DNA of 64,000 bases from Bacteroidales bacterium. Lineage in GTDB: Bacteria; Bacteroidota; Bacteroidia; Bacteroidales; WRLA01. Each line of letters begins with the position of its first letter. Positions within the stretch are counted from its first letter, which is position 1. Made by a program: the position numbers and the translations under genes. The stretch spans positions 1,679,403 through 1,743,402 of the forward strand of contig OZ245940.1 in NCBI GenBank assembly GCA_965230045.1, in the 5' to 3' direction. Positions 37,778-56,670 of this stretch are shown piece by piece. Under the pieces are notes generated by a model. It worked only from the letters and a program-made list of their open reading frames with translations. It was not told where the DNA came from and did not search any database.

Positions 37778-37805
37778 ATGCAAATTTTTAAAGGTTGATT
37801 ATTGT

Positions 37806-37833
37806 ATTTAGGTATTTGAATACGCAAATATAG
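37806..37833 (-). promoter_or_regulatory. Conserved 28-bp promoter/operator box upstream of hcp
   Basis: ATTTAGGTATTTGAATACGCAAATATAG matches 38278-38305 at 24 of 28 positions. On the minus strand it contains a TATATTTG -7 box and the inverted repeat ATTTG-N6-CAAAT. Confidence 0.5.
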
Positions 37834-37872
37834 TTATAATTTTTTTTGCTGCAAGTTTTTTTTGATAAAAAA

Positions 37873-38274: not shown

Positions 38275-38277
38275 ATA

Positions 38278-38305
38278 ATTTAAGTACTTGAATGCGCAAA
38301 TATCG
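38278..38305 (-). promoter_or_regulatory. Second copy of the 28-bp box, upstream of the Rrf2 gene
   Basis: ATTTAAGTACTTGAATGCGCAAATATCG lies 4 bp upstream of the Rrf2 ATG. See 37806-37833. Confidence 0.5.
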
Positions 38306-38408
38306 GCATTATTTTCAGCTTGAGCCTGTTTTTGTGTTTATTTAGATTTATTCTAATTGTAATTTTCATTGAGGTGAATTCACTACATTTGTTTTTTCAG
38401 CAAAATGA

Positions 38409-39248: not shown

Positions 39249-40176
39249 ATCAGATAAACCTACGCGCATCGGATTTGGAGAAGGAATCCGTGATGCAGCA
39301 AAAAAGAATAAACAAGTGGTTGGATTGGGGAGCGATATCACTTCCAGTGTGTCCATGAACCTTTTTGCAGAAACATTTCCTGAGCGCTTTTTTAGTTTGG
39401 GCATTGCCGAGCAAAATGCGGTTGGGGTTGCTGCCGGAATGGCTTTAAGCGGTAAAGTCCCCGTTTTCAGCACTTATGGTGTTTTTGCTGCCATGAGGGC
39501 TTTGGATCAGATCAGGATATCCTTATGTTATAATAATGTGCATGCCATAATTGGCGGAGCTCATGCCGGAATTTCCGTTGGACCGGATGGAGCCACACAC
39601 CAGGCTTTGGAAGATATTGCCGTGATGCGCGTTTTGCCCAATATGACCGTACTTTCGCCCTGTGATGCTACGCAGGCCCGACTGGCCGCAATGGCAGCCA
39701 TTGATAAATGTGACGGGACGGTTTATATTCGTTTCGGTCGGGAAGCTGTGCCGGATTTTACTGCCGAAGATCAGGATTTTCAAATCGGGAAAGCGCAATT
39801 AATGTGTGATGGCGATGATGTGAGCATTATTGCAACAGGGCATTTGGTTTGGGAGGCCATCAGGGCTTCAGAACTCCTGAAAGCCAAGGGTATTTCGGCC
39901 CAGGTGCTGAATATTCATACCATAAAACCATTGGATGAAAAAAGCATCATCGCGGCAGCCAAGAAAACGGCTAAAGTAATTTGCGCCGAAGAACATCAGA
40001 TTGCCGGAGGACTGGGCAGTGCTGTTGCGGAAGTCCTGGCAAAACATCATCCTGTAAAAATGGATTTTATTGGAATGAAAGACAGCTTTGGGGAATCGGG
40101 GAAACCTGCAGAACTGATGGAAAAATACGAGCTTACCGCGTCATGGATTGCCCAGGCTGCAGAAAGGATTCTATAA
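39232..40176 (+). CDS. Transketolase, C-terminal (pyrimidine-binding) subunit
   Basis: 314 aa. GIAEQNAVGVAAGMA motif. Overlaps the upstream subunit by 17 bp. Confidence 0.9.
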   Translation: MDWINKSDKPTRIGFGEGIRDAAKKNKQVVGLGSDITSSVSMNLFAETFPERFFSLGIAEQNAVGVAAGMALSGKVPVFSTYGVFAAMRALDQIRISLCYNNVHAIIGGAHAGISVGPDGATHQALEDIAVMRVLPNMTVLSPCDATQARLAAMAAIDKCDGTVYIRFGREAVPDFTAEDQDFQIGKAQLMCDGDDVSIIATGHLVWEAIRASELLKAKGISAQVLNIHTIKPLDEKSIIAAAKKTAKVICAEEHQIAGGLGSAVAEVLAKHHPVKMDFIGMKDSFGESGKPAELMEKYELTASWIAQAAERIL

Positions 40177-40243
40177 ATCATTTGGAATGATGCCCCGGAG
40201 AATTTCCTCACAGAAACTATCTAGAGCTTGTCCACAGAGTCGA

Positions 40244-40364
40244 GAGTTTGCTCTATAAAGTTCAAATTCAAGGCGTGTGAAAAATCCAAACCGGATAATA
40301 CTCAAGTATTTGAGGATTTGGATTTTGAGCAACAACGCAGAAGTTGGACTTTATAGACGAACTC
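40244..40364. repeat. Palindromic intergenic module, type A (121 bp)
   Basis: Termini GAGTTTGCTCTATAAAGT ... ACTTTATAGACGAACTC form an inverted repeat. It is the reverse-complement homologue of 56241..56363. Confidence 0.8.
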
Positions 40365-40370
40365 TATCTA

Positions 40371-40903
40371 GAGTCTGTCTATAATGTCGGGTTTCTGATT
40401 CAGAATGTTCGAGGTCGAGGTGTTCTTGGAATTGAAAATAAGGTTCTACCAGTAATTTCGTGGGTAATTATAATGTTTGAAAAAATGACTATGCCGATAT
40501 TTATTAATAAACTATTGATCCCTAACAGATTCCTCCCTTCCGATAACTATCGGGACAAAGCCTTAATCATTTCGTTTGGCTTTGTTCCGGTCGGAATGAC
40601 GCTGTTTATTAGGCGTTTAAGGCAAATGCGGCGAGGACATAATAGCTTATCTCAATTACGTCCTCGCCGCATTTGCCCTCTGACATTGTAAAACGCGTCA
40701 TTCCGACAAAGTTTCCGAAGCATGAGGAACACTTTGGAGGAATCTGTTTTGAAATATAGTAATTTTTCTTTCCACGAAATTCCGTGTTGTACCGAATATA
40801 AGGAGTCCCGTACGTACGGTATGCCTGTGCTGGGCTTGCCAAAGTAACTGGTTTCAATACCGAGAATAATCCCAAAGCTTCGGGAGATATTATAGACAGA
40901 AAC
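40371..40903. repeat. Palindromic intergenic module, type B, interrupted by the MITE-like element
   Basis: With 40442-40801 removed, it aligns end to end with the reverse complement of 56390..56533. Shared termini are TCTGTCTATAAT / ATTATAGACAGA. It ends at the stop codon of the 40903 gene. Confidence 0.75.
40442..40793. mobile_element. MITE-like non-autonomous element, copy 2 (352 bp)
   Basis: Homologous along its whole length to 18108..18449. TIRs are GGTTCTACCAGTAATTTCGTGG / CCACGAAATTCCGTGTTGTACC. Flanking 8-mers are GAAAATAA / GAATATAA (7 of 8 match). Confidence 0.8.
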
Positions 40904-42144
40904 TAATTCGAGGCGCCCACGATATGCACAACCCCCTTATAAGCTTCTTCGCTAAATAATCCGCGGCAATTCAGTACATAATAATATACGCCATCGCCCA
41001 GGCCATTGCCGTCCCAGTCGTTCATATAATTTGTGCTTTCAAATACTTTTTTGCCGTAGCGGTTAAAAACAGCCAGTTCGCTGCTGATAAACATATCCTC
41101 CAGCTTGGCTTCGTGGTTGTTGTTTTCCACGATTTCAAAAAAGTCGTTGATGCCATCACCATTTGGGGTAAAAACATTGGGAATCAAGAGGTCAACTTCT
41201 TTTATGCTTACGTCCATTACTACGCTGGTATCACAACCGTCCGCGTTATTGGCGGTAAGTGTCACCGGGTAGGTGTTTACCCTTACGTAAGTGTGCGTTG
41301 CATTATAAGTAGTTGCCTGAGCGGTCGTGTCACCAAAATCCCACAACCAGCCTTCGCCTTCTGTTGAGGTGTTGATAAACTCAATGGTAGGTTTGTAAAT
41401 GTATCCTGTATCCGGATCGATTTCAAAACTGATTTCCGGAGCGGGGATGATTTCCACAAAATATGAATCATCGTAGGGGCAGCCGTTTCCGTCGGTGATG
41501 CGCATTTTTACCTCGCCGGCAGGAAGTCCGTAGCCTACTTGTGTAGTTTGCTTGGGAGCGGTAAACCATAAAAAAGAGTAGGGCTCAACGCCATCCGTAA
41601 CATTGATGGCTACCTGGCCTTTATCGTCCTTGAGGCAGCCTTTATTGATTTGCGTTAGTGTATAGGTGATGCCCGATTGGAAAATAGTCAGTCCGCCTGC
41701 AGTATAGTTGGTGGGTAGATCGACGCCGTCTTTATCTTTAAAATTACTGGCTTCCCATGTTATGGCTGTGTTTCCGGCAGCAATTCCTTCAAATTGCAAT
41801 TGCAGCAAAATGCCTGAACCAAACATCAGGTCTTCTGCATTGTCCCATTGCATATTGATCGTATTTCCCGTATTGCTTACCTTGATGCTGTCCCTGAAAA
41901 AATATGGGTTTTGGTACGACATCGAATCGAATGAAATCAGGTTTTCGTCAAAGCTGATGTTGAGGTCGAAACTGGCGAATGTAGCGTCTTCCAGGATCAG
42001 GCTCAGCGCAATGGTGTCGTTTGTGCAAAGCGTACCGTCGGGAAATTCTGCGCCAATTATCTGGCTGTGAGCAGAATGATTTATGGTAAAAAACAGAACG
42101 ATTGTCAGGAAAACCGGATAGAAAGATATTCTTTTCATGTGCAT
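40903..42144 (-). CDS. Secreted protein with PKD/Ig-like repeats and a type-B T9SS C-terminal domain (gliding-motility CHU_C type)
   Basis: Signal peptide. C-terminal motif LLIPNVFTPNGDGINDFFEI..NRYGKKVFES..WDGNG..GVYYYVL. The track start at 42153 is a TTG, so ATG 42144 is preferred. Confidence 0.8.
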   Translation of the reverse strand: MHMKRISFYPVFLTIVLFFTINHSAHSQIIGAEFPDGTLCTNDTIALSLILEDATFASFDLNISFDENLISFDSMSYQNPYFFRDSIKVSNTGNTINMQWDNAEDLMFGSGILLQLQFEGIAAGNTAITWEASNFKDKDGVDLPTNYTAGGLTIFQSGITYTLTQINKGCLKDDKGQVAINVTDGVEPYSFLWFTAPKQTTQVGYGLPAGEVKMRITDGNGCPYDDSYFVEIIPAPEISFEIDPDTGYIYKPTIEFINTSTEGEGWLWDFGDTTAQATTYNATHTYVRVNTYPVTLTANNADGCDTSVVMDVSIKEVDLLIPNVFTPNGDGINDFFEIVENNNHEAKLEDMFISSELAVFNRYGKKVFESTNYMNDWDGNGLGDGVYYYVLNCRGLFSEEAYKGVVHIVGASN

Positions 42145-42412
42145 TTTGGCCAAAAAATTTGAAGCAAAGTTAGCAATATTGCTAAACGGAAAAAATTAAA
42201 ATTTATTCCGTGGCATTCGGTTGAATTATTCATAAAATATCCCAATACGAAGCAAACAACAATAGAAAGAACGAATGTTTACTGTTTTAGTCTCCAGCTT
42301 ATTGTTTCTCATGAAAAAATTCATATTAAAAGGAGAATGAAGGTATTGAGGATGTTTTGAAGTATTTTATTTCTTTTAATACAACAATCTGACTCGTTTA
42401 GACCGTGCGTTG

Positions 42413-42602
42413 GCCAGTCAAAACGGCGGGCAAGAAGCGGGTGAATTTCAGACGCTTAGAATTCTATCAATGGGCGTGAGCTTTGCTGAGGAACGAGGCA
42501 CTACTTTGATGTAGAATTCTTAGCGCCTGAAAGAGCGGGTGGAAGCATTGTTTTGACTTGGCTTTTTGTTCCTTTTGTGCCAAGACAAAAGGAAGAATTT
42601 TT
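42413..42602 (+). ncRNA. Candidate structured sRNA: rod with a large internal bubble plus an intrinsic terminator
   Basis: P1 pairs 42413-42424 with 42550-42562 (12 bp, one bulge). P2 pairs 42449-42466 with 42512-42529 (16 of 18 bp). The 24/20-nt internal loop carries AGCGGGTG on both sides. The terminator hairpin is 42569-42594 followed by a T5 run. Confidence 0.35.
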
Positions 42603-42667
42603 AATACAGCAAAGAAGTCCAGGTATTAATAAATCGGCCAGGTGATTCATGGGTGTGGCTGCAAAAC

Positions 42668-43033
42668 CTAAAACTGCCCGGTCGATAAGAGCACCAAAGT
42701 ACAATACTCATGGATTTCAATTTCGGCATCTTTCAAAAAATCCCTGATTTCCTTATTTTCCGTGCCGGGATTAAGAATAATACGTTTGGGGCGGCTTGCT
42801 TTGATTTGCTCAAAGTATTGTTTTTGCAGTTCCGGCCGCAGGTAGATTGTGATGGTATGAATTTCCGTATTTTCAGGCCAATGCGTTTGAACCGGTGTGC
42901 CTGCAATTTTTCCTTCTTTGGCTCCTAAGGCAATCGTTTCATATCCTTTTTGACGGAGCATTTGAACAGCTTTAAAAGAATATCGTCCCGGATTTGTGCT
43001 GGCTCCGACTACCAGTGTTCTTTTGTTGGGCAT
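42668..43033 (-). CDS. CoA-binding domain protein (YccU-like)
   Basis: 121 aa. MPNKRTLVVGASTNPGRYSFKAV.. N-terminus typical of the family. Confidence 0.85.
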   Translation of the reverse strand: MPNKRTLVVGASTNPGRYSFKAVQMLRQKGYETIALGAKEGKIAGTPVQTHWPENTEIHTITIYLRPELQKQYFEQIKASRPKRIILNPGTENKEIRDFLKDAEIEIHEYCTLVLLSTGQF

Positions 43034-43041
43034 AGCAAATA

Positions 43042-44658
43042 TTATTGATTTAAAACACTAAACTGTTTGGAACCACAAAATGTTGTCCCACAAACAACCT
43101 GTAAAATATAGTTCCCGCATTTGAAGCCCTCCAAAGATATAATATATTCTTCTGTGCCCTGTGGCAATGGATAAGTGGCCAGCATCCTGCCCAGCAGGTC
43201 GAAAATAAGCAGCTCGCCTTTTTGCGGCAGGGCTTCAAAACTAATGTTGATATGCTCTCTGGCCGGGTTGGGTGCTATTTGTATTTTGTTTTCCGGCTTT
43301 TTGGGCAGCTCTCCCGTGGCAGTGGTAATGATAAAATCCTCTGCATAAAACTCTACTGCCCCGCTGCTGATGCCGCCCGGGCACCAGGGGTCATAATGGT
43401 TGGTGTCGGTTTGCAGGCTGTCGTATTCCAGATCGGAATTGAGTTTGAAAAGTACGGTGGTGGGGATGTTTTCTTCATCAAATTCTGTCGTAAAAAAGAG
43501 AAACATATTGTCTTTGGTCTTATTTACATCAGAACTAAGGTTTGGAAGGTTTTTGATAAGGCTTTTTATTTTAATAATACTTCCATTGGTATCCAGCTTT
43601 ACGGCCAGGCTTTGGTATTCATATTCAATATAGGGTAAAGTGTCCGGAGCTTCAGGGTCTCTGTACCAACGTGCTGAAGCAATTAATATGCTGTCATTCA
43701 AAAGAGCACCGGAATAATAATGCGCCGGCTTATATCCATCAAAATGAAAGGATTGATAGTTGGCTGTATTTTGCCCGTTTGCATTATATACATTGAGTGC
43801 CGGGCTGCTGTACTCAAATTTGAATTCCCCCAGGCCAATAAATTTTTCGGTATCCGGAAAATTTAAAGCTTTTAAAGCCCCGCCTAAGAAAACAGTATCC
43901 CTGATGCTGGGGGCGTCTGCCCAAAGGAATTCCCCATCGGGACTGACACATGCATAGTAGGGGCTTGAAAACCATTCCAGAGAATCCCAACGGTAATAGC
44001 ATTCCCCGGCACAAATGGTATTGCCCGATGGCAGCATTTCTATATCACGGATTAATGGAAGGATAATATTGCTGTCGCCGGCATAGGAATGCAATGGGCA
44101 GTTCCAAATAAGTTCCCCTTCTGGGGAATACTTAAGGATATAGCTTTCCGTTCCCGAAGCATTTGGGTCAAGATAGCGCATTAGGGTTACAATATTGCCA
44201 TCAGGAGCCAATGCAAGATCAACACCATAATTAAGTATTTCCGGCGAATAATAAAGCATGGCCCATTCTTTTTCGCCACATGCATTAAGCTTTATCAGGA
44301 AAGGGTCGTTGTTTGGGCTTAAAGCTTTTGTGCCTCCAATGGAATATATATTGCCATTGTTGTCCTGCTGGCTTTGTACAATATAATTGGAAGTTTCCTC
44401 ATGAAGCATGTCAAAAGTGTGTATGCTTTTCTCCCAGAGTTTGTTTCCATTAATATCTGTTTTAGAGATAAGGCCTTGATAAGAAAAGCCATTATTGCTT
44501 AAATTGTGAGTCAATAGTATTCCATTATCCTGGCTAATGTTAATTTTTCTTGAGCGAGAATTGTGGCTTATTACGGCCTTCCAAATGGAATCATTTTGAG
44601 CTTTGATAAGAAGTGAGTTTAGGACTAAAACCAGGGTTAGGGTTATATATAGTTTCAT
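43042..44658 (-). CDS. T9SS-secreted paralogue A (putative beta-propeller ectodomain plus type-A CTD)
   Basis: Signal peptide MKLYITLTLVLVLNSLLIKAQ. Repeated ..DINGN.LWEK.. type segments. CTD IAPNPAREHINISF..LLIFDLLGRMLA... ATG 44658 is preferred to the track start at 44709. Confidence 0.75.
   Translation of the reverse strand: MKLYITLTLVLVLNSLLIKAQNDSIWKAVISHNSRSRKINISQDNGILLTHNLSNNGFSYQGLISKTDINGNKLWEKSIHTFDMLHEETSNYIVQSQQDNNGNIYSIGGTKALSPNNDPFLIKLNACGEKEWAMLYYSPEILNYGVDLALAPDGNIVTLMRYLDPNASGTESYILKYSPEGELIWNCPLHSYAGDSNIILPLIRDIEMLPSGNTICAGECYYRWDSLEWFSSPYYACVSPDGEFLWADAPSIRDTVFLGGALKALNFPDTEKFIGLGEFKFEYSSPALNVYNANGQNTANYQSFHFDGYKPAHYYSGALLNDSILIASARWYRDPEAPDTLPYIEYEYQSLAVKLDTNGSIIKIKSLIKNLPNLSSDVNKTKDNMFLFFTTEFDEENIPTTVLFKLNSDLEYDSLQTDTNHYDPWCPGGISSGAVEFYAEDFIITTATGELPKKPENKIQIAPNPAREHINISFEALPQKGELLIFDLLGRMLATYPLPQGTEEYIISLEGFKCGNYILQVVCGTTFCGSKQFSVLNQ
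43262..43449. repeat. 188-bp conserved block, copy in paralogue A
   Basis: By hand alignment it differs at ~6 positions from 45443..45630 and ~8 from 48763..48950, while the flanking coding sequence is far more divergent. Confidence 0.85.
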
Positions 44659-44727
44659 AATTTGATATTGCTTTTGGGTATTATTGAAGCAGTCAGGAAA
44701 CCGAAACATTTCCCGACTGCTAAAGTG

Positions 44728-45216
44728 TTAATTATTAATTACATTGAAAGTCCGGGTTCCGATTGAATGGTTTTTATCAGCTAATTTCAGGAAATAACTG
44801 CCCGTAGGATAATTTTGCAAATTCAATTTATATTGCCCCATGCCATTGGAAAGCATAATGGCATCCATAATTTTTCCATTGGCATCATATACGGTCAGTA
44901 AGGCGCTGTTTTTCAATTCTGAGAAACGGATGTTGAGCTTTTCTGTTGCAGGGTTTGGATAAACGCTAAGCTTTGGTGTGTATTTTTCAGCTATTTCCAG
45001 CTTTCTGTATTTCTCAAAAGGGTCTTCTGCATTGCCCGATTTAAAACCTTCATCCTTTAGGTAAAGCGGTTCGGAATATTCTATGGCTTTTGCCGTAAGC
45101 AGTATGTTGCGGGCATAGGTAGCCGCTAAACTGTTGGGATCATGGCCAATCTGCATCAGGTTTTGCCGGATGAGGGGGAAGACTTTATTTGATATTATCG
45201 GGTCTGTATTCATCAT
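44728..45216 (-). CDS. Short ORF ending in a T9SS type-A CTD but lacking a signal peptide (possible gene remnant)
   Basis: 162 aa. The C-terminal half (SVYPNPATEKLNIRF..LTVYDANGKIMD..GSYFLKL) looks like a CTD. The N-terminus (MMNTDPIISNK..) is not signal-like. Confidence 0.45.
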   Translation of the reverse strand: MMNTDPIISNKVFPLIRQNLMQIGHDPNSLAATYARNILLTAKAIEYSEPLYLKDEGFKSGNAEDPFEKYRKLEIAEKYTPKLSVYPNPATEKLNIRFSELKNSALLTVYDANGKIMDAIMLSNGMGQYKLNLQNYPTGSYFLKLADKNHSIGTRTFNVINN

Positions 45217-45442
45217 AGCAAAAGTTTAATTTATCACCCCAAACTGCTGTGCTCCTACAAAATCATTCCCACAAACGACCTGCAAAATATAGTTCCCGCT
45301 TTTGTAGCCCTCCAAAGATAAAATATATTCTTCTGTGCCCTGTGGCAATGGATAAGTGGCCAGCATCCTGCCTTGCAGGTCGAAAACAAGCAGCTCGCCT
45401 TTTTCTGGCAGGGCTTCAAAATGGATGTTGATCTGCCCTTGG

Positions 45443-45630
45443 GCCGGGTTGGGTGCTATTTGTATTTTGTTTTCCGGCTTTTTGGGCAGCTCACCCGTGG
45501 CTGTGGTAATAATAAAATCCTCCGCATAAAACTCTACCGCCCCGCTGCTGATGCCGCCCGGGCACCAGGGGTCGTAATGGTTGGTGTCGGTTTGCAGGCT
45601 GTCGTATTCCAGATCGGAATTGAGTTTGAA
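45443..45630. repeat. 188-bp conserved block, copy in paralogue B
   Basis: See 43262..43449. Confidence 0.85.
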
Positions 45631-46483
45631 AAGTACGGTGGTGGGGATTGTGTTCTCATCAAATTCATAACCAAAAAACAGGAACTTATCATCCGGTGTT
45701 TTGGCTACGTGCGGCGGTATTCCTTTATTATCATCTATTAGCATTTTGGTTTTAATAATTTTTGCGCTGGTATCCAGTTTAACGGCCAGCCTTTTGCCGT
45801 AATATTCAAAATAAGGCAGAGTGTCTGCTGTGGTATCTTTGGGCCACCATCTCCCTGAGGCAATTAAAATGGAATCATTGAGCAGTGCACCGGAATAGTA
45901 CTGAGTATTAGTGTAACCATCAAACTCAAAACTGCGGTTGTTTTTGATATTGTGCCCCGAAATATCGTAGCGGAAAAGGGTAGGGCTGCTGAAGTTTTGG
46001 AACAAATGTTCGCCCAGCCCGATAAACTCATTGCCTTCTTCTAATAATAGGATTTTATCAATATTTACCGGTGAAACCGTATCTTTGGTGCGGGGCACAT
46101 GATCCCAGGCCAGCCTGCCGGAATTGTTAATCCGTGCTACAAAAGGGCTTCTTTGCCAAAACATATAGCGGATCTGGTAATAACAATCTCCGCCCCCAAT
46201 AATATCGCCTGAGGGCAGCACCTCTATATCCCTGATGTAGGGTGCGCCTGTATTGGTATCGCTTGCAAATGAGGGCACAGGGCAGTTCCAGATCAATTCG
46301 CCCTGGGGGCTGTATTTGAGGATATTGCACTTTGTCAGTGATTCGTCAGGAAAAATGTCGCGCATCAGTGCAATAAGGTTGCCATCTTTGGCAAAGGCAA
46401 TATCGTATCCATGTGCGTTATAGTCAGGGCTGTCATACATAAGCCCCCATTCTTTTTCGCCCAATGGATTTAGTTTAAAAATG

Positions 46484-48127
46484 GTAACTAATCAGTCTGC
46501 AAATTAGCGATAGTTCCCAAAGCAGGCACAACACTCTGTCCATTCTTGATAATTGTGTCAGTAACTGATCTCAAAACAGCAAAGGCATCCGCTCCTTCGG
46601 TCGATCTGAATTGACCTGAAACTTTCTGTTTTACTTTTATGTTTCGGATTGCCCTTTCAGAAGCATTATTGTCTGGCGGGACTTCTGGGTGATATAAGAA
46701 GGTGAAGATATAGTCCCTGTATTTGACGAGCCTTTTTTTGAATGCAAGCAATTCGTTGTGTTTTTCCGGCAGTTCTGCTTTCAGTAAACTGTTCAGCCTG
46801 TTTTCAATTGCGTTCCTCTTTGGGTTATGTACGTAGCAGCCCGCATTGTCCATTTTTTTCTTCAAATCCAGTGCCGTTTGAAACAGCCGTTTGCATATCC
46901 TGCTCCATTTATGCCCATACCTTTCTGACAAGTAATTCAGGTCACGTAAAAGATGTGCCATACAAATCTGGTGCGACAGCGCAGCAGTATTAAAATGGCT
47001 CTTCCAGCAATCATGTACCAACACAGAGTTTTTAAACCCATCTTTAAATGTATTGCCAATGCTCCTCTGTGCCCTGTTGTCAGTGATGGTAATGAATGTA
47101 GCCTCTTGGTTTTGCCATGTCCATGCCCAGTGCTTATTGCCATCAACCTTAACTCCTGTCTCATCACTTCCTACAGAAAAACAATATCCTCCCGAAAGCA
47201 ACTTTTGCTTTATTAGGTCATAGGCTGGTTGGGCCTTACGCTTTAGTTTATTGAGCAAATAATGGATGCCCCCTTCGCTTATGGGAACGTGGAAAACATC
47301 CCTGAAAAGTTCTTTCATACGCAGAAAGGGCAGGTACTGCCTGGTATGGAAATACCCGATCAAACTTTCAATGTTGTTCCCATAGCTTACCGGGGCATTG
47401 GCCTGAGATGGATAATCACACTTGGTTTCATGGCCACAACTGCAAACCTTTTTATATACCCGGTGTTCTGTGACATGTAACTTTATCTCGGGAATATCAA
47501 ATACCTGGCGTTTACCGGCTAATTGTACGGGCAAAGAAGCAAGGTCTTTTCCGCAACACTTGCAATATGAGGGGATGTGCTTCTCAATAGTGTCAGGCAC
47601 TTGGGCCATCTTAAGTGTGTTTCCTTTCCGCCCTGCCTGTCCGCCTGGCTTACGCCCTGTCTTTTCCCTCAAACTCCTGCGCTTAGGGCGGTTCTGATCT
47701 TGGGAGGGAGGTATTGAGCTGTTGTTGCTGTTTTTTGGTGTTTGGTATTTGGCAAGCTTTTCTTTGAGTTTTTTGTTTTCCAACTCAAGGGCTTCCAGTC
47801 TTCTTTCAAGCTGGCCGATCCTTTTGAAAAGCTCTTGTATAATGAAATCTTTGTCCAAAACTTTTTTCTTTCAAAAGTAGTGTAGGTTGGAGGCAAAAGT
47901 CAAATTACCAGCGGTTTAGTTACGAACACAGGAAACAGCAAATTGTGAACAGCCAATGATTTTTGAAAAATACCCCAAGGAGAACCCAATATTTAAACCC
48001 GAAATCCAAAGGCAAACAAATAGCAAAATCACAGAGCCTTTAAACGCATCAACCCCAGAAAGTTATTCACAAGCCACAGCGAAAATTGTTAATAAGGATT
48101 GATTTTTTTCTGACACTGATTAGTTAC
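46484..48127 (-). mobile_element. IS66-family insertion sequence, single-ORF type (1644 bp)
   Basis: TIRs GTAACTAATCAGT.. at both ends (IS66-like 5'-GTAA). Perfect 8-bp TSD TAAAAATG (46476-46483 and 48128-48135). Contains one transposase ORF. Confidence 0.9.
46488..47858 (-). CDS. IS66-family transposase (TnpC-like)
   Basis: N-terminal leucine-zipper-like coiled coil (LERRLEALELENKKLKEKL), a Cys-rich region (CKCCGKDL, CSCGH) and a long DDE-type core. Only a TTG start is available in frame. Confidence 0.88.
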   Translation of the reverse strand: MDKDFIIQELFKRIGQLERRLEALELENKKLKEKLAKYQTPKNSNNSSIPPSQDQNRPKRRSLREKTGRKPGGQAGRKGNTLKMAQVPDTIEKHIPSYCKCCGKDLASLPVQLAGKRQVFDIPEIKLHVTEHRVYKKVCSCGHETKCDYPSQANAPVSYGNNIESLIGYFHTRQYLPFLRMKELFRDVFHVPISEGGIHYLLNKLKRKAQPAYDLIKQKLLSGGYCFSVGSDETGVKVDGNKHWAWTWQNQEATFITITDNRAQRSIGNTFKDGFKNSVLVHDCWKSHFNTAALSHQICMAHLLRDLNYLSERYGHKWSRICKRLFQTALDLKKKMDNAGCYVHNPKRNAIENRLNSLLKAELPEKHNELLAFKKRLVKYRDYIFTFLYHPEVPPDNNASERAIRNIKVKQKVSGQFRSTEGADAFAVLRSVTDTIIKNGQSVVPALGTIANLQTD

Positions 48128-48545
48128 TAAAAATGAATGGATTTTTATAGGAGGAAGTATAGCTATAGAATGAGCCGATTCCATAAATATTCCCTGCAGA
48201 ATCCTGTATGCTATTGTGTATGGCGTTTTTTGTTTCCTGGCCGTCTATGGCGTAAATGTGTATTTCCTTTTCCCATAATATATTGCCATTGATATCGGTT
48301 TTTGCAATAATACCCATTATGTACTGTCCTTGGCTGTATAGGTTATAAGTAAGCAAATAACCTCCGTCTTTGCATATATAAATATCCTCGGCAGCAGTGC
48401 TATATTGAATCTGGCGTTTCCATGTGTAATCCTGCTGGGCTGCTAATAGAAACGGACATGCTATGATAATAAGTATGAAAAATTTGTTCATGATTTGAAG
48501 TATTGGAAACAGGGAGCTGTAAGCTCCCTGTTTTGATTGAAGAAT

Positions 48546-50165
48546 TTATTTAATGATGCTGAATTGCCGGGCATCCACCAAAGTATTATTGCAATATAGC
48601 TGTACAATATATGTTCCGGCAGGGTAGGTTCCAAGGCTTAAAGTGTACTTATGAGTGCTTTCTGTAATGATTATCCTGTCCATTAACTGGCCTTTTTGAT
48701 TGAAGATATTCAACTGTTTATCCCCGGGACAATGTTCAAAACTAATGTTTATATGCTCCTTTGCCGGGTTGGGTGCTATTTGTATTTTGTTTTCCGGCTT
48801 TTTGGGCAGCTCGCCCGTGGCTGTGGTAATAATAAAATCCTCCGAATAAAACTCCACAGCCCCGCTGCTGATGCCGCCCGGGCACCAGGGGTCGTAATGG
48901 TTGGTGTCGGTTTGCAGGCTGTCGTATTCCAGATCGGAATTGAGTTTGAAGAGGGCTAAATAATGTAAGGAATCTTCATCGTAATCCATTCCTAAAAACA
49001 GGAACTTATTGTCAGGTGTTTTTGCGGTATAGATAAATGGATTATTCGGGTAATAAACAAGGCTCTTGATTTTTTGTATCTCTCCACTCGTATCTACTTT
49101 AACGGCTAAACTTTGTCTGCTATAATCCAGGTATTCCAGTGTGTCCGGATAGTCATAACCAGGCCACCAAACCGCTGAACAGATAAGCGTTTGGTTGTTT
49201 AGGGGTACAGCATCATAGAATAGTGCCTTGCTATATCCATGCTGTTTAATGGAAATATTATTTGCAATCCTATTGCCATAATAATCATAGATGTAAAGCG
49301 CAGGGCTTGTGCTTATTGAAGTATTTGATTCTCCCAATCCAATCATAATGTTGTTGTCTGGAAATATTACTGAGTTAAACGAACTTCCCATGAAAAATGT
49401 GTCTTGAACCTCAGGTAACCAAGTGTTAATTAATTTGCCTGAATTATCTATAAAACAATAGCACGGTACGGAAACATAACCAATCTGTTCGTTCCCATAC
49501 CATCCATCTCCACAGGCTATTACACCGTTTTCTCCTGTCGCTTCAATTCTTTCAAAGAGAGGATAGAGATACATGGTGTCAATATGTATTCCGGGAATTG
49601 GAGTCCTCCAAAGAATTTCTCCACCTTTTGAATATTTGAATATGGAGTAAGTTGCTGAATCCATGAATGCAGGAACATTATTGTATAATGCATAAATAAA
49701 ACCATTAGGGCTTAGTGTTAAATCTCTACATTGATCGGCATGATTAGGTGTTTGACTGCTTATTGCCCAGATTTTTTCAAATGATGGGCTTAATTTAATC
49801 AATAATGGATTTGGATTTGCTCTAGTGTTTAATTGTTGTGTCATTCCTGACATATAGTATGATCCTGAGCTATCTTGATAGCAATTATCTATAATTGTTG
49901 TAGCCCGAAGGTCATTCTCATCTCTGGTTATTATTTCTTTCACCCAAAGAGTGTTTCCATTAATATCAGTTTTTGAAATAAATGCTCTTTGCAATGAGTT
50001 GCTGTGGTGTTTGTAGGTCATGAGATACCCTCCATCAGGACAAATAGATAGATTTTGTGCCTTTCCATTTTGCATATACAATCTTCGCCAGACGGAATCT
50101 CCCTGAGCGTGAATAAGAGAACTGAGAATAAGTCCAAAAAAGATGAATAGAATGTTCTTTTTCAT
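48546..50165 (-). CDS. T9SS-secreted paralogue C
   Basis: Signal peptide MKKNILFIFFGLILSSLIHAQ. Same architecture as paralogue A but with a different CTD sequence. ATG 50165 is preferred to the track start at 50207. Confidence 0.75.
   Translation of the reverse strand: MKKNILFIFFGLILSSLIHAQGDSVWRRLYMQNGKAQNLSICPDGGYLMTYKHHSNSLQRAFISKTDINGNTLWVKEIITRDENDLRATTIIDNCYQDSSGSYYMSGMTQQLNTRANPNPLLIKLSPSFEKIWAISSQTPNHADQCRDLTLSPNGFIYALYNNVPAFMDSATYSIFKYSKGGEILWRTPIPGIHIDTMYLYPLFERIEATGENGVIACGDGWYGNEQIGYVSVPCYCFIDNSGKLINTWLPEVQDTFFMGSSFNSVIFPDNNIMIGLGESNTSISTSPALYIYDYYGNRIANNISIKQHGYSKALFYDAVPLNNQTLICSAVWWPGYDYPDTLEYLDYSRQSLAVKVDTSGEIQKIKSLVYYPNNPFIYTAKTPDNKFLFLGMDYDEDSLHYLALFKLNSDLEYDSLQTDTNHYDPWCPGGISSGAVEFYSEDFIITTATGELPKKPENKIQIAPNPAKEHINISFEHCPGDKQLNIFNQKGQLMDRIIITESTHKYTLSLGTYPAGTYIVQLYCNNTLVDARQFSIIK
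48763..48950. repeat. 188-bp conserved block, copy in paralogue C
   Basis: See 43262..43449. Confidence 0.85.
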
Positions 50166-50490
50166 AAGGATACTGTATTGGATATATGTTATAATATTGA
50201 ATTCCAAAATAATTTTATCGTAAATTAATCCTTAAACTCTCTTTAATGACAATACTTTTGTTGTTGGTATATTTACTTAGACTCTGGTGGGTTTTTGGGG
50301 TTGCTTATCAAATGATTATATTTGATCGACCGGAAAAATTGTCATAAAAAATTAGTATAAAACCCATAAAACGGCCATAATGTCATAATAATGAGTGTTT
50401 TATATAGCGTCCATGTCCATTTTGTCTTCTTTTTCCTATTGGTTTGCTTTTTGATCTGTGGCCGTATGAAAATTTGAAAGGAGAAGACAA

Positions 50491-53079
50491 ATGAATTTTA
50501 ATCAATTTACAATAAAAGCACAGGAAGTAGTGCAAAAAGCACAGGAAATTGCTGCTGCACACAATCATCAGGCAATCGAAGATTTGCATATCCTCAAAGG
50601 GATTTTGCTGGTCGATGAAAACCTGGTGCCCTATATCATGAAAAAAACCGGGCTGGATCCCCAAATGATCGGCCGCATTGTTGACAGCGAGCTGCAAAAC
50701 CTGCCTGTCGTTAGTGGCGGGCAGCAATATCTTTCCAATGAAGCATCTGCTCTGCTGCAAAAAGCCCTGAAGCTGATGCAGAAAATGCAAGACGAATTTG
50801 TTTCCATTGAGCATTTACTGCTGGCTTTGATCGAGCAAGGTGGAAAGGCCGGGAAAATCCTCAAGGATGCCGGCCTGACCAAAAAAAGTCTGGAAGAGGC
50901 CATTGCCCAGGTGCGCAAAGGTTCGCATGTGGATTCGCAAAATGCCGATGATAATTTTAATGCCCTACGTCGTTATGGCAAAGACCTGAACCAATTGGCT
51001 GCCAATGGCAAGCTCGACCCGGTGATTGGCCGCGATGAAGAAATCCGCAGGCTCTTGCAGATATTGTCGCGCCGTACCAAAAACAACCCGATTTTAATCG
51101 GTGAGCCGGGCGTGGGGAAAACCGCCATCGCCGAAGGGCTGGCACACCGCATCGTAAATGGTGATGTGCCCGATAACCTTAAGTCCAAGCAATTATTTTC
51201 GCTGGATATGGGCGCGCTGGTGGCCGGTGCAAAATACAAAGGCGAATTTGAAGAGCGCCTCAAAAGTGTGGTGAAAGAAGTGGTGGAATCCGATGGGGAA
51301 ATCTTGCTTTTTATCGATGAGATCCATACCCTCGTAGGAGCCGGAAAAGGCGAAGGCGCCATGGATGCAGCCAATATACTGAAACCCGCTTTGGCCCGTG
51401 GCGAATTGCGCGCCATCGGTGCTACTACCCTCAAAGAATACCAAAAGTATTTTGAGAAGGACAAAGCTTTGGAACGCCGTTTCCAGATTGTGATGGTGGA
51501 CGAACCGGATACCCAGTCGGCTATTTCCATCCTTCGTGGATTGAAAGAGCGTTACGAAACCCATCACCATGTGCGCATCCTCGATGAAGCCATCATTTCG
51601 GCAGTGGAGCTGTCGCAGCGATACATCACCGATCGGTTTCTGCCGGATAAGGCCATTGACCTGATCGATGAATCTGCTGCGAAGTTGCGATTGGAAATCA
51701 ACAGCCTGCCCGAGCCGCTCGAAAAAATAGAAAGGCGGATTCGTCAACTTGAAATCGAACGAGAAGCCATCCGTCGCGAAAAGGATAAAAACAAAATGGC
51801 ATTTCTCAACGAAGAAATTGCCAATCTGAATGAAGAGCGCGATCAGCTCCGGGCCAAATGGCAGTCGGAAAAAGAAGTAGTGGAAGGCATCCAGAAGGCA
51901 AAGAAAGATATTGAAGATTTCAAGCTGGAAGCCGAACGTGCCGAACGCGAAGGAAATTATGGCCTGGTGGCCGAAATCCGTTATGGCAAGATCAAGGAAG
52001 CCGGCGAAAGGCTGGAGCTTAACCGTAATAAACTCAAAGAGATGCAAGGCGACAGCCCGATGATCAATGAGGAGGTGAGTTCCGAAGAAATTGCTGAAGT
52101 TGTTTCGCGCTGGACCGGCATACCGGTGAGCCGTATGATGCAAAGCGAACGCGAAAAACTGCTGAAACTGGAGGAAGAACTCCATAAAAGAGTAGTGGGA
52201 CAGGACGAAGCCATTGAAGCGCTTTCCGATGCTATTCGCCGCAGCCGAGCCGGTTTGCAGGATGCAAAAAGGCCGATTGGATCTTTTATCTTCCTGGGAA
52301 CCACAGGAGTGGGCAAGACCGAACTGGCCAAAGCGCTGGCAGAATTCCTCTTCAACGACGAAAATTCAATGGTGCGCATTGATATGTCGGAATATCAGGA
52401 ACGGCATTCTGTTTCGCGATTGATTGGAGCGCCTCCGGGCTATGTGGGCTACGACGAAAGTGGTCAGTTGAGCGAGGCTGTGCGCCGTAAACCTTATTCG
52501 GTGGTACTGCTCGATGAAATTGAAAAAGCGCATCCCGATGTGTTCAATATCTTGCTGCAAGTGCTTGATGATGGCCGCCTGACCGACAACAAAGGCCGGA
52601 ATGTGGATTTTAAAAACACCATCATCATCATGACTTCCAATTTGGGTTCGCAATTGATTCAGGAAAAACTAAGCAATGGCTCAGAGGCCAATGAAGCGCT
52701 CTTTGATGAAACCCGGGAGGCATTGTTTGCTTTGTTGAAGCAGAGCATACGTCCCGAATTTTTGAACCGGATTGATGAGGTGATCATGTTCCGCCCGCTT
52801 AGCCGCGAAGAAATTGGTGGTGTTGTGCGCCTGCAGATGAAGCTTCTGGCAAAAATGCTGGAAAAAAACAACATCAAAGTAGAAGTGAGCGATGCAGCCG
52901 TGGAATGGATTGCCAAAAACGGATTTGATCCGCAATTTGGCGCCCGTCCGGTGAAACGATTTATCCAGCGCAAAATCCTCAATGAACTATCAAAGATGAT
53001 CCTCGCCGGTAAAATCCAGGCAGAATCTGAAATCATGGTGGATATGGAAGGAGAGAACCTGGTATTCAGGAATGAATAG
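50491..53079 (+). CDS. clpB: ATP-dependent chaperone ClpB
   Basis: 862 aa. Two Walker A motifs ([16 protein letters not shown]) and a middle coiled-coil domain. Confidence 0.97.
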
Positions 53080-53127
53080 TAATGCAAAAGCAGGTGGCAC
53101 AATTTGGCCCAGTCACTGTACTATTTA

Positions 53128-53247
53128 GTTTCTGTCTATAAAGTCCGCTAACTTCGTTACGCTTGCCCGAAAAATGCTCATTTACCCCAGTAAACTCTGC
53201 TTTTTCGGGCTGCGCAAGCCTCGTTATCGACCTTTCTAGCTCAGAAA
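53128..53247. repeat. Palindromic intergenic module (120 bp), related to the types at 40.2 and 56.2 kb
   Basis: Termini GTTTCTGTCTATAAAGTCC ... CCTTTCTAGCTCAGAAAC. Internal stem GCCCGAAAAA / TTTTTCGGGC. Confidence 0.7.
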
Positions 53248-53285
53248 CCCGACTCTATGGATAAGCACTATTGAATCAATAACAT

Positions 53286-53336
53286 CAGAAAAGATGGTCG
53301 CTGAGGCACTCGAAGCGCATCTTTTCTGATTTTTTT
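53286..53336 (+). terminator. Rho-independent terminator, probable end of the clpB transcript
   Basis: 11-bp stem CAGAAAAGATG / CATCTTTTCTG followed by ATTTTTTT. Overlaps the stop of the convergent methyltransferase gene. Confidence 0.7.
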
Positions 53337-54096
53337 ACATAAACCGCTCCAATCGAGCCAACTGCTCCTCAGGTACAAACAAAAGATCATCCGAAATCTC
53401 ATCCTTTTGGGTTTTATCCAAAGGGGTGAGTTTGCTTTTAAAAAGCGAATACGGCTCATAACCTGCAGCCGCCAGCTCCTTTCTGATTTTGATGAGATTA
53501 TCGCCGCTGGTTTCCAGCTGGATCAAGGGTTTGTGCTGTTTTATGAAATCCATCATCAATGGAATAATATGAATTTCAAAACCTTCCACGTCCATTTTAA
53601 TATAATTGCAATGCCTGATTTTTGCAAAAAGTTTTGCCGGATGGCGCATTTCTGCCGTAAAACTATGGTCTGCAGCGGTGTTTTCTTCCATCACACGGGT
53701 AAGGCCATGCCGGAAATGCGGGCTGCCTGCCGGGATGCCCATCCGGATTTTTTTCCCGTCATCCTCACCCAGTGCAAAAGGCATAATCTGAATATTTTTG
53801 TATTTCCGGGTGTTGCATTTCAGGATATCGCGAAAAAGCAAAACAGGCTCCACACTGATGACACTACCGCCTTTTCCACTGTAGCGCGCAAAAAGCTTTG
53901 AGTAGTAGCCCACATTGGCGCCAATATCGATAATGGTATCGCCGGGGCGGATCAGGTTTTTCACAAAATAATGAAAATCAAAAGCACGTTTGCGGCGCAG
54001 CAATCCGCTGTCGAGCGAAATAAAAAATGCTTTGCTGACCAGTTTGAGGTACGTTTTAACACCGAGTATGGAAAAGAGGGCTTTCTTAACAATCAT
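53335..54096 (-). CDS. FkbM family methyltransferase
   Basis: SAM-binding motif IIDIGANVGYYS. 253 aa. Confidence 0.8.
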   Translation of the reverse strand: MIVKKALFSILGVKTYLKLVSKAFFISLDSGLLRRKRAFDFHYFVKNLIRPGDTIIDIGANVGYYSKLFARYSGKGGSVISVEPVLLFRDILKCNTRKYKNIQIMPFALGEDDGKKIRMGIPAGSPHFRHGLTRVMEENTAADHSFTAEMRHPAKLFAKIRHCNYIKMDVEGFEIHIIPLMMDFIKQHKPLIQLETSGDNLIKIRKELAAAGYEPYSLFKSKLTPLDKTQKDEISDDLLFVPEEQLARLERFM

Positions 54097-54258
54097 ATCA
54101 AATTACTTTGCCGCAAAAGTAATCAAAAGCAGAAAAGGGAAATCATTGGCCTGCTTTTTCTATTTTTGTAACGCTTTGGTGAAAATACTTTTCATGGGCT
54201 TTAAACGTTTTGACTTTGAATGGCTCAAATTCATCACCGATTAGCTAAAAATCAGATT

Positions 54259-56363: not shown

Positions 56364-56389
56364 TCGAGTTTATAGGCAAGGACGAAATA

Positions 56390-56533: not shown

Positions 56534-56670
56534 GCTACAGGCAGGGTGTCTGGAACCCGAACATGCTGGATAAAAAATTTAATCCAGAATAAAATGAATG
56601 TTTTCCTGTTGGAAATGACATTCCAAAAAAAATTGATTCACCGGATGCGTTCCGGCTTTAAAAATGAAAT

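What the first reader, a model, noticed from the sequence alone, without database searches (positions are those of the whole stretch)
43042..50165. Three divergent T9SS-secreted paralogues share a 188-bp near-identical block with mosaic flanks, which suggests a recombination or gene-conversion cassette
Three same-strand tandem genes have only loosely similar ~400-aa ectodomains: A at 43042..44658, B (disrupted) at 45226..48491, and C at 48546..50165. All three carry the same 188-bp block at 43262-43449, 45443-45630 and 48763-48950. By hand alignment the copies differ at only ~4-8 positions. The block encodes LFKLNSDLEYDSLQTDTNHYDPWCPGGISSGAVEFY(A/S)EDFIITTATGELPKKPENKIQIAPNPA, which sits exactly at the junction between the variable ectodomain and the T9SS CTD. 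Synonymous positions are conserved too, so protein-level selection alone does not explain it. The flanks are mosaic. A and B continue to match on the ectodomain side (AAGTACGGTGGTGGGGA) and through the CTD. A and C match instead on the CTD side for ~35 bp (TTCAAAACTAATGTT.ATATGCTC). C has a different CTD altogether. This pattern is what repeated gene conversion or unequal exchange between direct repeats would leave. Such exchange would let variable surface modules be re-paired with secretion tags, or deleted, as a possible surface-variation mechanism. Alternatively the block could be a conserved nucleic-acid element such as an antisense RNA or a recombinase site.
Basis: partly seen in the sequence, partly recalled or inferred. 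Interest (0 to 1): 0.72.

Follow-up and report, generated by a model that had tools for sequence, protein, structure and literature searches.

The report
Recombination hinge in secreted-protein paralogues
Three very different neighbouring genes for secreted beta-propeller proteins in an uncultured Bacteroidales bacterium share one almost identical 188-base junction because they repeatedly recombine there; this is a clear but ordinary case of gene conversion in a surface-protein family, not a new kind of element.

Summary
Genes A (43042-44658), B (45226-48491, split by an IS66-family insertion) and C (48546-50165) all lie on the minus strand. They share a 188-nt block that differs at only 4-8 positions. 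The rest of the genes is 47-55% identical, with saturated synonymous divergence.

The block is not constrained at the nucleotide level. Its synonymous divergence among 10 copies from several related genomes (dS 0.10-0.54) matches that of housekeeping genes between those genomes (mostly 0.10-0.26). No RNA family, excess RNA structure, conserved antisense ORF, reverse transcriptase or site-specific recombinase was found.

The block is the only stretch with exact identity runs of 30 nt or more between gene types. Real exchange events end at its edges:
- B's ectodomain is joined at the block's 5' edge to an A-type 3' end that carries a diagnostic duplication junction.
- Near-identical ectodomains in two genomes carry different secretion tags (CTDs).
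- C's CTD is shared with an unrelated neighbouring cargo gene, with homology starting at the PNPA codons that end the block.

The best explanation is ordinary homologous recombination and gene conversion in a tandem, mosaic family of T9SS cargo genes. The whole 7.3-kb array is an insertion specific to this genome. A selected surface-variation role is unproven. This is a new member of a known kind.

The parts
43042..44658 (-). Gene A: 538-aa T9SS cargo. Signal peptide, beta-propeller ectodomain (A type), junction block, CTD type 1.
   Evidence: ORF. Pfam Por_Secre_tail 29.5 bits vs cut-off 27. 83% aa identity to L001 gene, 91% to P0001.
43262..43449 (-). Block copy A (188 nt).
44728..45216 (-). 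162-aa ORF. It is the 3' fragment, with its own CTD, of a ~1690-aa Sortilin/BNR-like T9SS gene, left by a 2.17-kb tandem duplication. The same junction is present in related genome X (L012).
   Evidence: Pfam Por_Secre_tail 53.7 bits. Collinear with L001 9484-9931 and L012 9484-9931.
45226..46483 (-). Gene B, 3' part: B-type ectodomain remainder, block, CTD type 1.
   Evidence: P0006 is 100% identical.
45443..45630 (-). Block copy B. Its 5' edge coincides with the switch from a Y-like B-type gene to an X-like A-type 3' end.
46484..48127 (-). IS66-family insertion sequence (single 456-aa transposase, 13-bp terminal inverted repeats) that interrupts gene B. 8-bp target duplications at 46476-46483 and 48128-48135.
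48128..48491 (-). Gene B, 5' part (signal peptide and first propeller blades).
   Evidence: In-frame restoration gives a 537-aa ORF.
48546..50165 (-). Gene C: 539-aa T9SS cargo. C-type ectodomain (GC3 0.19-0.34, no close relative elsewhere), block, CTD type 2.
   Evidence: AF2 model pLDDT 89, beta-propeller.
48763..48950 (-). Block copy C. Its last 11 nt (CCCAACCCGGC = PNPA) are where homology to the CTD of an unrelated Sortilin-like gene begins.
43035..50332 (.). The whole array (A, fragment, B+IS, C). It is a ~7.3-kb insertion between the CoA-binding-protein gene and clpB. Related genomes Y, Z and V have only ~80 nt here.

Best explanation
A, B and C belong to a tandem, fast-rearranging family of T9SS-secreted beta-propeller proteins in a complex of uncultured Bacteroidales genomes that are about 95% identical in their backbone.

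The 188-nt block encodes four things in order: the last propeller strand, a structured cap that contains the family-wide motif KLNxDLExDS..YD..CP, a short flexible linker, and the first CTD strand ending in PNPA.

It is the only stretch in which the anciently diverged gene types still share exact identity runs of 30-90 nt. It is therefore the only substrate on which the host's general homologous recombination can act between types. This last step is inferred and is presumed to be RecA-dependent.

Repeated short-tract gene conversion and occasional crossovers seeded there have three effects:
- They keep the block alike in all copies.
- They shuffle ectodomain modules (A/B/C and sub-segments) against CTD modules (types 1 and 2). 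Type 2 is also shared with an unrelated neighbouring cargo gene.
- They change copy number and location.

The identity is self-reinforcing: identity permits conversion, and conversion restores identity. No dedicated enzyme or nucleic-acid element is needed.

Shown here: the tract, its neutral rate of change, the breakpoints and the module re-pairing. Inferred: the enzymology, the direction of individual events, and any fitness benefit.
For: 1. Tract versus flanks. Block dS is 0.13-0.25 between A, B and C, while ectodomain dS is saturated. Permutation gave 0 of 2000.

2. The block changes at the neutral rate. Among 10 copies from genomes W, X (two assemblies), Y and Z, pairwise block dS is 0.10-0.54. 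Backbone genes between W and Y/Z/V give dS 0.10-0.26 for 6 of 7 genes, and the flanks are 93-96.6% identical. Of the 25 variable block sites, 21 are third codon positions.

3. Exact runs of 20 nt or more between A/C and B/C exist only in the block (56, 50, 35 and 92, 50, 31). The longest run outside is 16 nt.

4. Breakpoints at the block edges:
- L012 9022-11564 is collinear with window 45636-43086 (91.5%) across a shared duplication junction.
- L2a and L3a have near-identical ectodomains but different CTDs.
- CTD type 2 equals the CTD of the Sortilin-like neighbour, with homology starting at PNPA.
- The KEHINISFE sub-module is found with both CTD types.

5. Recombination inside the block: 19 of 36 site pairs fail the four-gamete test.

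6. Mosaicism runs along the whole genes, including segments 100% identical between genomes whose backbone differs by about 5%.

7. The loci are dynamic. Copy number varies among these genomes: at least 5 in W, 1-2 in X, 3 in Y, 1 in Z, and none seen in V. Locations differ, X carries a tandem duplication, and the array is an insertion in W.

8. An unrelated tandem array of the wider family (L006) also has a homogenised 3' end: 92% identity there against 77% at the 5' end.

9. GC3 is 0.59-0.66 in the block against 0.31-0.46 in the ectodomains and 0.41-0.54 in the backbone. This is compatible with GC-biased conversion.
Against: - Classic concerted evolution predicts that copies within a genome resemble each other more than copies in other genomes. 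That is not seen: mean differences are 8.3 within and 8.1 between genomes. Homogenisation is therefore either as old as the species complex or mixed with exchange between genomes.
- No event was observed in real time, because no reads were available.
- The direction of exchange is unresolved. The block may have been converted, or the ectodomains may have been replaced.
- C's very low GC3 hints at a foreign origin for that ectodomain.
- The relationship of genome X to the ~95% complex was not measured on backbone genes.
Confidence: 0.8

Rival explanations
1. The block is a selected 'adaptor'. It would be maintained because it serves as the single homology anchor for capturing divergent or foreign ectodomains by homology-facilitated illegitimate recombination, and for swapping CTDs. 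That would make it a combinatorial surface-variation system rather than a by-product.
For: - C's ectodomain is compositionally foreign (GC3 0.19-0.34 against backbone ~0.48) and has no close relative, yet it is fused to a B-type 3' end about 75 nt upstream of the block.
- Modules are re-paired across genomes.
- Copy number and location are highly variable.
Against: - No evidence of within-population switching.
- All copies are complete genes with their own signal peptide and CTD; there are no silent cassettes.
- Block divergence equals neutral divergence.
- Swapping a cleavable CTD has no obvious phenotypic effect.
- One copy is simply inactivated by an IS.
Confidence: 0.12
2. The paralogues are young (age equals block dS, about 0.2). 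The A, B and C ectodomains were each replaced later by highly divergent alleles imported from other lineages. On this view the block was left behind rather than converted.
For: - Segments 100% identical between genomes with ~95% backbone identity show that exchange between genomes happens in these genes.
- C's ectodomain has a deviant GC3.
- Array positions differ among genomes.
Against: - No donor lineage exists among 5.8 billion proteins. The next relatives are 29% identical or less, and the JGI metagenome scan found none.
- A and B types are each shared by several genomes of the complex.
- Replacement still needs recombination at the block, so this is a variant of the main model rather than an alternative to it.
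Confidence: 0.2
3. The block is a functional nucleic-acid element (antisense or cis-regulatory RNA, a recombinase or invertase site, or a DGR repeat) conserved by selection on the DNA or RNA.
For: Synonymous sites are far more alike in the block than in its flanks. An antisense ORF is open across the block in all three copies.
Against: - Block dS equals backbone dS.
- No Rfam hit at E of 1 or less overlaps the block.
- RNA folding z-scores are -0.08 and +0.42.
- Every sense-synonymous difference changes the antisense peptide.
- No reverse transcriptase, tyrosine recombinase or serine recombinase is in the 64-kb window.
- The repeats are direct, and the variable sites are not adenine-specific.
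Confidence: 0.03
4. Protein-level purifying selection plus codon bias alone explains the identity.
For: The first half of the block is the most conserved motif of the wider family. dN in the block is about 0.
Against: - Elsewhere in the same genes, identical amino acids share codons only 44-49% of the time, against 87-92% in the block.
- The other strongly conserved motif (KTDINGN.LW.K) is only 67-70% identical at nt level.
- The second half of the block is a variable linker in the wider family.
Confidence: 0.02
5. Assembly or polishing artefact that copied one sequence into three places.
For: The source is a metagenome-assembled genome.
Against: - The same block, with copy-specific SNPs, occurs in five further independent long-contig assemblies.
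- The contigs are megabase-scale.
- 188 nt is far shorter than the unique flanks that any long read would span.
Confidence: 0.01

Closest known systems
Porphyromonas gingivalis gingipain/adhesin genes (rgpA, kgp, hagA): domain rearrangement and allelic exchange in T9SS cargo (Dashper et al. 2017, PMC5266723)
   Same: These are paralogous T9SS cargo genes of a Bacteroidales member that share modules. The combinations of catalytic, adhesin and C-terminal modules form a strain mosaic unrelated to the core phylogeny. The authors attribute this to recombination, gene conversion and horizontal exchange.
   Different: - The ectodomain here is a single beta-propeller of unknown function, not a protease with adhesin repeats.
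- The shared tract is one short 188-nt junction rather than kilobase-long repeated domains.
- The genes are tandem.
- The organism is an uncultured environmental lineage.
Interlocus (non-allelic) gene conversion and concerted evolution of bacterial paralogues (for example tuf, rRNA operons, and the M. tuberculosis antigen loci in the PMC13061034 abstract)
   Same: A tract has much lower synonymous divergence than its flanks, there is phylogenetic incongruence along the gene, and exchange depends on local sequence identity.
   Different: There is no genome-specific homogenisation. Block polymorphisms are shared across paralogues and genomes. This implies either old conversion followed by patchy short tracts, or recombination between genomes.
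Cassette-based antigenic variation (Neisseria pilE/pilS, Borrelia vlsE, Anaplasma msp2); comparison from general knowledge
   Same: Conserved sequence next to variable segments guides homologous recombination that reshuffles a surface protein.
   Different: - There is no single expression site with silent, truncated cassettes; all copies are complete genes.
- Conserved sequence lies on the 3' side only.
- No cis-acting initiator element was found.
- No within-strain switching is shown.
Homology-facilitated illegitimate recombination (one-sided homology anchor for foreign DNA uptake; de Vries and Wackernagel 2002, from general knowledge)
   Same: A single anchor of ~150-200 bp could explain how an ectodomain with no 5' homology (type C) came to be fused at or near the block.
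   Different: This is purely inferential here. The 5' junction of C and the natural competence of the host are unknown.

Membership tests
T9SS type-A CTD cargo (Por_Secre_tail, PF18962) | C-terminal ~70-80-aa sorting domain that matches the family model above its curated threshold | tested here: met
   A scores 29.5 bits and C 37.9 bits against a cut-off of 27. The 162-aa fragment scores 53.7 bits. The AF2 model shows a 7-strand beta domain at residues 461-537.
T9SS type-A CTD cargo (Por_Secre_tail, PF18962) | N-terminal Sec signal peptide | tested here: inconclusive
   A hydrophobic N-terminus ending in ..AQ is present in all copies, and residues 2-22 are helical in the model. No signal-peptide predictor was available.
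T9SS type-A CTD cargo (Por_Secre_tail, PF18962) | Host encodes the T9SS machinery (PorK/L/M/N, SprA, PorU/V) | not tested
   Only other CTD-bearing genes were seen (CHU_C protein at 40903-42153; Sortilin-like genes in L001/L002). Machinery genes were not searched for.
Interlocus gene conversion / recombination between paralogues | Tract with significantly lower synonymous divergence than its flanks | tested here: met
   Block dS is 0.13-0.25 against saturated flanks. Permutation gave 0 of 2000.
Interlocus gene conversion / recombination between paralogues | Mosaic structure: different segments of one gene have different nearest relatives, and breakpoints can be identified | tested here: met
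   Four-gamete failures in 19 of 36 pairs.
Interlocus gene conversion / recombination between paralogues | Tract similarity not explained by constraint on the nucleotide sequence itself | tested here: met
   Block dS is about equal to backbone dS. No RNA signal was found.
Interlocus gene conversion / recombination between paralogues | Concerted evolution: copies within a genome more alike than copies between genomes | tested here: not met
   Mean block differences are 8.3 within genomes and 8.1 between genomes.
Programmed cassette antigenic variation (pilE/pilS-like) | One expressed locus plus silent, truncated donor cassettes | tested here: not met
   A, restored B and C are all full-length, with start codon, signal peptide and CTD.
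Programmed cassette antigenic variation (pilE/pilS-like) | High-frequency switching within a clonal population | not testable with these tools
   Needs raw long reads or cultures.
Diversity-generating retroelement | Reverse transcriptase nearby, and a template/variable repeat pair that differs at adenines | tested here: not met
   No RT was found among the ORFs of 200 aa or more that were scanned in the 64-kb window. Block differences are synonymous third-position changes of all base types.
Site-specific recombinase shufflon / invertible element | Tyrosine or serine recombinase gene adjacent, and inverted-repeat crossover sites | tested here: not met
   The only transposases are IS66 (inside B) and IS21 (59349-61644). 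The block copies are direct repeats.

The most novel reading that the evidence does not exclude
The invariant junction block could be a selected universal adaptor of a combinatorial surface-display system. As one short anchor kept identical in every family member, it would let the cell do three things:
- capture very divergent or foreign beta-propeller ectodomains by one-sided (homology-facilitated illegitimate) recombination;
- exchange secretion tags even with unrelated T9SS cargo genes;
- expand, contract and relocate arrays.

This would amount to a recombinase-free cassette system for diversifying the T9SS-displayed surface.
Probability: 0.12. Interest if true: 0.65.

Novelty: new member of a known kind. 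Interest (0 to 1): 0.35.

Why it matters
The locus gives an unusually clean natural example of where exchange happens in Bacteroidota secreted proteins. A T9SS cargo gene behaves as three exchangeable modules: ectodomain, junction and CTD. Breakpoints are mapped to within a few nucleotides, and CTD exchange is seen between unrelated cargo genes.

This has three practical consequences:
- Annotating and building phylogenies of T9SS cargo families needs care, because whole-gene trees are meaningless here.
- Short-read MAG assembly of such arrays is at risk of error.
- Fast-evolving surface propellers like these are candidate targets of phage or predator pressure in uncultured Bacteroidales.

It does not reveal a new mechanism.

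Tried and rejected
- A GENECONV-style test restricted to sites polymorphic among A, B and C was significant only for A/B (P=0.0001). It was uninformative for A/C and B/C, because a tract shared by all three contributes almost no polymorphic sites. It was replaced by an all-site permutation.
- An Rfam scan at a permissive E-value over 42500-50600, and a gathering-threshold scan over the whole window, found nothing relevant.
- RNA folding of both strands of the block showed no excess stability.
- The sigma-70 promoter and terminator scan gave counts close to those of shuffled sequence (30 vs 22.7, sd 5.2; 10 vs 7.5) and no site of note; it is also not suited to Bacteroidota promoters.
- The antisense ORF across the block was rejected, because all sense-synonymous changes are antisense-nonsynonymous.
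- DGR and shufflon ideas were rejected for lack of an RT or recombinase.
- A JGI metagenome scan with a fully degenerate back-translation of NHYDPWCPGGI gave 0 hits. The GTDB scan found the block only in genomes Y and Z. The block-bearing clade is therefore tiny, and older block versions could not be sampled.
- DNA of the two further A-type copies of the window's own genome (P0001, P0121) and of the window's contig could not be retrieved.
- Foldseek gave only generic beta-propeller matches (best: CylK, TM 0.56), so no function could be assigned.

Full report
**1. What is in the window**

All three genes lie on the minus strand.
- A is 43042-44658 (538 aa).
- C is 48546-50165 (539 aa).
- B is 45226-48491 and is split by a 1644-bp IS66-family element (46484-48127). 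The element has 13-bp terminal inverted repeats and an 8-bp target duplication, TAAAAATG, at 46476-46483 and 48128-48135. Removing the IS and one duplicate restores an uninterrupted 537-aa ORF.

Between A and B lies a 162-aa ORF (44728-45216) with its own T9SS CTD.

Pfam recognises only the C-terminal Por_Secre_tail domain in A and C. An AlphaFold2 model of C (pLDDT 89) shows:
- a signal helix;
- a beta-propeller at residues ~27-408, for which Foldseek finds only generic propellers, the best being CylK;
- a 7-strand CTD at residues 461-537.

**2.

The three 188-nt copies differ at 6, 8 and 4 positions. A 32-mer from the block occurs three times, against zero expected.

The codon-aligned comparison:

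| Region | aa identity | nt identity | identical amino acids using the same codon |
|---|---|---|---|
| Ectodomains | 34-48% | 47-55% | 44-49% |
| Block | 98-100% | 95-97% | 87-92% |

NG86 dS is 0.13-0.25 in the block and saturated in the ectodomains. No column shuffle out of 2000 reaches the observed 188-211-nt near-identical stretch.

- A and B share 15 nt more on the 5' side and have 84% identical CTDs.
- A and C share about 35 nt more on the 3' side.
- C has a second CTD type.

**3. What the block encodes**

In C the block is residues 405-468. It comprises the last propeller strand, a well-ordered ~45-residue cap, a flexible linker (452-458, pLDDT below 50), and the first CTD strand ending in PNPA.

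In the wider family the next relatives are 29% identical or less, all from Bacteroidales-like MAGs. The first half of the block corresponds to the family's most conserved motif (KLNxDLExDS.YT...YDSLCP..I.S). The second half is a variable linker.

Protein constraint therefore explains some of the amino-acid conservation but not the identity at synonymous sites.

**4. Related genomes**

The window is part of a 5,143,137-bp contig: P0006, P0007 and ClpB P0127 are 100% identical to window products. That contig also carries two more A-type copies.

| Label | Source | Family copies retrieved |
|---|---|---|
| X | L001; L012 (a separate assembly, 97-98.5% identical to L001) | 1 in L001; 2 in L012 |
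| Y | L002 | 3 tandem B-type copies |
| Z | L003 | 1 |

The records are 'Bacteroidales bacterium' MAGs, and Y and Z are separate GTDB species representatives.

Every retrieved copy carries the block at 95-98% identity to A's copy.

**5. The key calibration**

The clpB neighbourhood was retrieved for Y (L013), Z (L014) and a fifth genome V (L015). It is syntenic with window 32161-43034 and 50333-58309 at 93-96.6% nt identity.

Backbone dS between the window genome and Y, Z or V is 0.10-0.26 for six of seven genes. Block dS among all pairs of copies is 0.10-0.54.

The block therefore changes at the ordinary neutral rate. It is not ultraconserved DNA. All block copies simply share an ancestor about as old as this species complex, whereas the A, B and C ectodomains are far older.

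This removes the need for a nucleic-acid function. Four further results agree:
- No Rfam hit overlaps the block.
- Folding z-scores are -0.08 and +0.42.
- The antisense ORF changes amino acid at every sense-synonymous difference.
- Pfam scans of most ORFs of 200 aa or more in the window found no reverse transcriptase or site-specific recombinase.

**6. Direct evidence of exchange at the block**

(a) L2a (Y) and L3a (Z) have almost the same ectodomain (dS 0.15) but different CTD types.

(b) L012 positions 9022-11564 run from the block of its first A-type copy, through CTD type 1, a tandem-duplication junction and a Sortilin-gene fragment, to the second A-type copy. This stretch is collinear at 91.5% with window 45636-43086, which runs from B's block through A. 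The identical junction sequence is included. Upstream of the block, B is instead collinear with Y's B-type array. The window array is thus a chimera of a Y-like B array and an X-like A tandem, joined at the block's 5' edge.

(c) CTD type 2 (in C, L2a and L2b) is about 90-95% identical at nt level to the CTD of the unrelated ~1700-aa Sortilin-like cargo gene upstream in Y, and to a 169-aa remnant in Z. Homology starts exactly at CCCAACCCGGC (PNPA), the last 11 nt of the block. L2b even shares Y-specific variants with that neighbour.

(d) Within the block, 25 of 192 sites vary among 10 copies, and 21 of these are third codon positions. Of 36 pairs of informative sites, 19 fail the four-gamete test. 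Within-genome differences (mean 8.3) equal between-genome differences (mean 8.1).

(e) Nearest-neighbour scans show mosaicism along the entire genes, including segments 100% identical between genomes whose backbone differs by about 5%.

**7. Why the block**

Between A/C and B/C the only exact-identity runs of 20 nt or more are in the block (56, 50, 35 and 92, 50, 31 nt). The longest run outside it is 16 nt.

General homologous recombination needs such runs, so the block is the only place where the types can still pair. Conversion then renews the identity. This step is inference from established knowledge of minimal-homology requirements. No enzyme was tested.

GC3 is raised in the block (0.59-0.66) compared with 0.31-0.46 in the ectodomains and 0.41-0.54 in backbone genes. 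This is compatible with GC-biased conversion.

C's ectodomain has a strikingly low GC3 (0.19-0.34) and no close relative. It may be an import fused at or near the block.

**8. Locus dynamics**

In Y, Z and V the CoA-binding-protein gene sits about 240 nt from clpB. In the window, about 80 nt of that spacer are replaced by the 7.3-kb array (43035-50332).

Copy number and location differ in every genome examined. X shows a 2.17-kb tandem duplication of the unit [Sortilin 3' fragment + A gene], and the window has inherited its junction.

A distant tandem array of the wider family (L006) also has a homogenised 3' end, 92% identical against 77% at the 5' end.

**9. Comparison with what is known**

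The closest described case is P. gingivalis, where the T9SS cargo genes rgpA, kgp and hagA share modules that are recombined into strain-specific mosaics (PMC5266723). More generally this is interlocus gene conversion in a surface-protein family.

It is not a pilE/pilS-type cassette system, because there are no silent cassettes. It is not a DGR and not a shufflon (see the membership tests).

The classic signature of concerted evolution, genome-specific homogenisation, is absent. Polymorphisms are shared across paralogues and genomes instead.

**10. Verdict**

The alternative of a nucleic-acid element is rejected, and a functional 'surface-variation' role is unproven.

The finding is a well-resolved new member of a known kind. 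Interest is moderate to low (0.35). The most novel reading not excluded is a selected adaptor for one-sided capture of ectodomains and for CTD swapping. Its probability is about 0.12.

Noticed in passing
window 46484-48127 (target duplications at 46476-46483 and 48128-48135): A single-ORF IS66-family element (456-aa transposase with DDE_Tnp_IS66, zf-IS66 and DUF6444 domains) is inserted in gene B with an 8-bp target duplication TAAAAATG. No second copy exists in the window or in the fetched loci.
   Followed up: yes
window 43035-50332 vs L013 9763-9841, L014, L015: The whole paralogue array is an insertion between the CoA-binding-protein gene and clpB, and is absent at this site in three related genomes. 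The left junction lies 8 nt from the CoA-binding gene's start codon. A's last codons (TTATTGATTTAA) resemble the spacer sequence of the relatives, which may be microhomology or a remnant.
   Followed up: partly
window 44728-45216; L012 9484-9931; L001 9484-9931: The 162-aa 'CTD-only' ORF is the 3' fragment of a ~1690-aa Sortilin/BNR-like T9SS gene. It was created by a 2.17-kb tandem duplication whose junction is shared by the window and L012.
   Followed up: yes
window 43042-43261 and 45226-45442 (CTD type 1), and homologues: The CTDs evolve with a high dN/dS. For example, B vs L3a gives dS 0.04 and dN 0.05, and B vs L2c gives dS 0.09 and dN 0.096. The adjacent block has dN of about 0. This suggests relaxed or diversifying selection on the cleavable secretion tag. 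Counts are small.
   Followed up: partly
window 48951-50165 (C ectodomain): GC3 in the C ectodomain is 0.19-0.34, against about 0.48 in backbone genes and 0.6 in the block. No relative above ~60% nt identity exists anywhere. The ectodomain may have been acquired horizontally.
   Followed up: partly
window 18108-18386 and 40442-40729; L003 2069-2351 and 12336-12502; L014/L015 ~7634-7948: A ~290-nt intergenic repeat with nested palindromes (for example GGCAAATGCGGC...GCCGCATTTGCC and CGGAATGACG...CGTCATTCCG) looks like a MITE or REP element. It has no Rfam match. The 40.2-40.9-kb copy sits in an insertion relative to L013.
   Followed up: partly
window 53122-53272 (downstream of clpB); L001 15993-16143; L013 13637-13987, L014 15878-16228, L015 13178-13360: A palindromic REP-like element lies downstream of clpB and is 88% identical to a sequence in L001. 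At the equivalent position the related genomes carry a Y1_Tnp (IS200/IS605 or RAYT-type) gene.
   Followed up: no
L001 14543-15816; L012 14542-15342: An array of ~130-nt tandem repeats (95-99% identical copies, with copy number differing between the two assemblies) lies downstream of the BNR/Big_7 gene next to the A-type gene.
   Followed up: no
window 58310-62827 (ORFs 59349-60920 and 60925-61644): An IS21-family element (rve/Mu-transposase-C protein plus IstB ATPase) lies inside a segment that is absent from L013 at this position.
   Followed up: partly
window 42226-42661: A 436-nt segment lies between the PKD/CHU_C gene and the CoA-binding gene. It is absent from L013-L015 and has no other copy in any fetched sequence.
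   Followed up: partly
L006 9884-14651; L010 1841-7739: Distant members of the same propeller-CTD family also occur as three-gene tandem arrays in other Bacteroidales MAGs. In L006 the 3' 461 nt are 92% identical between copies whose 5' parts are 77% identical.
   Followed up: partly
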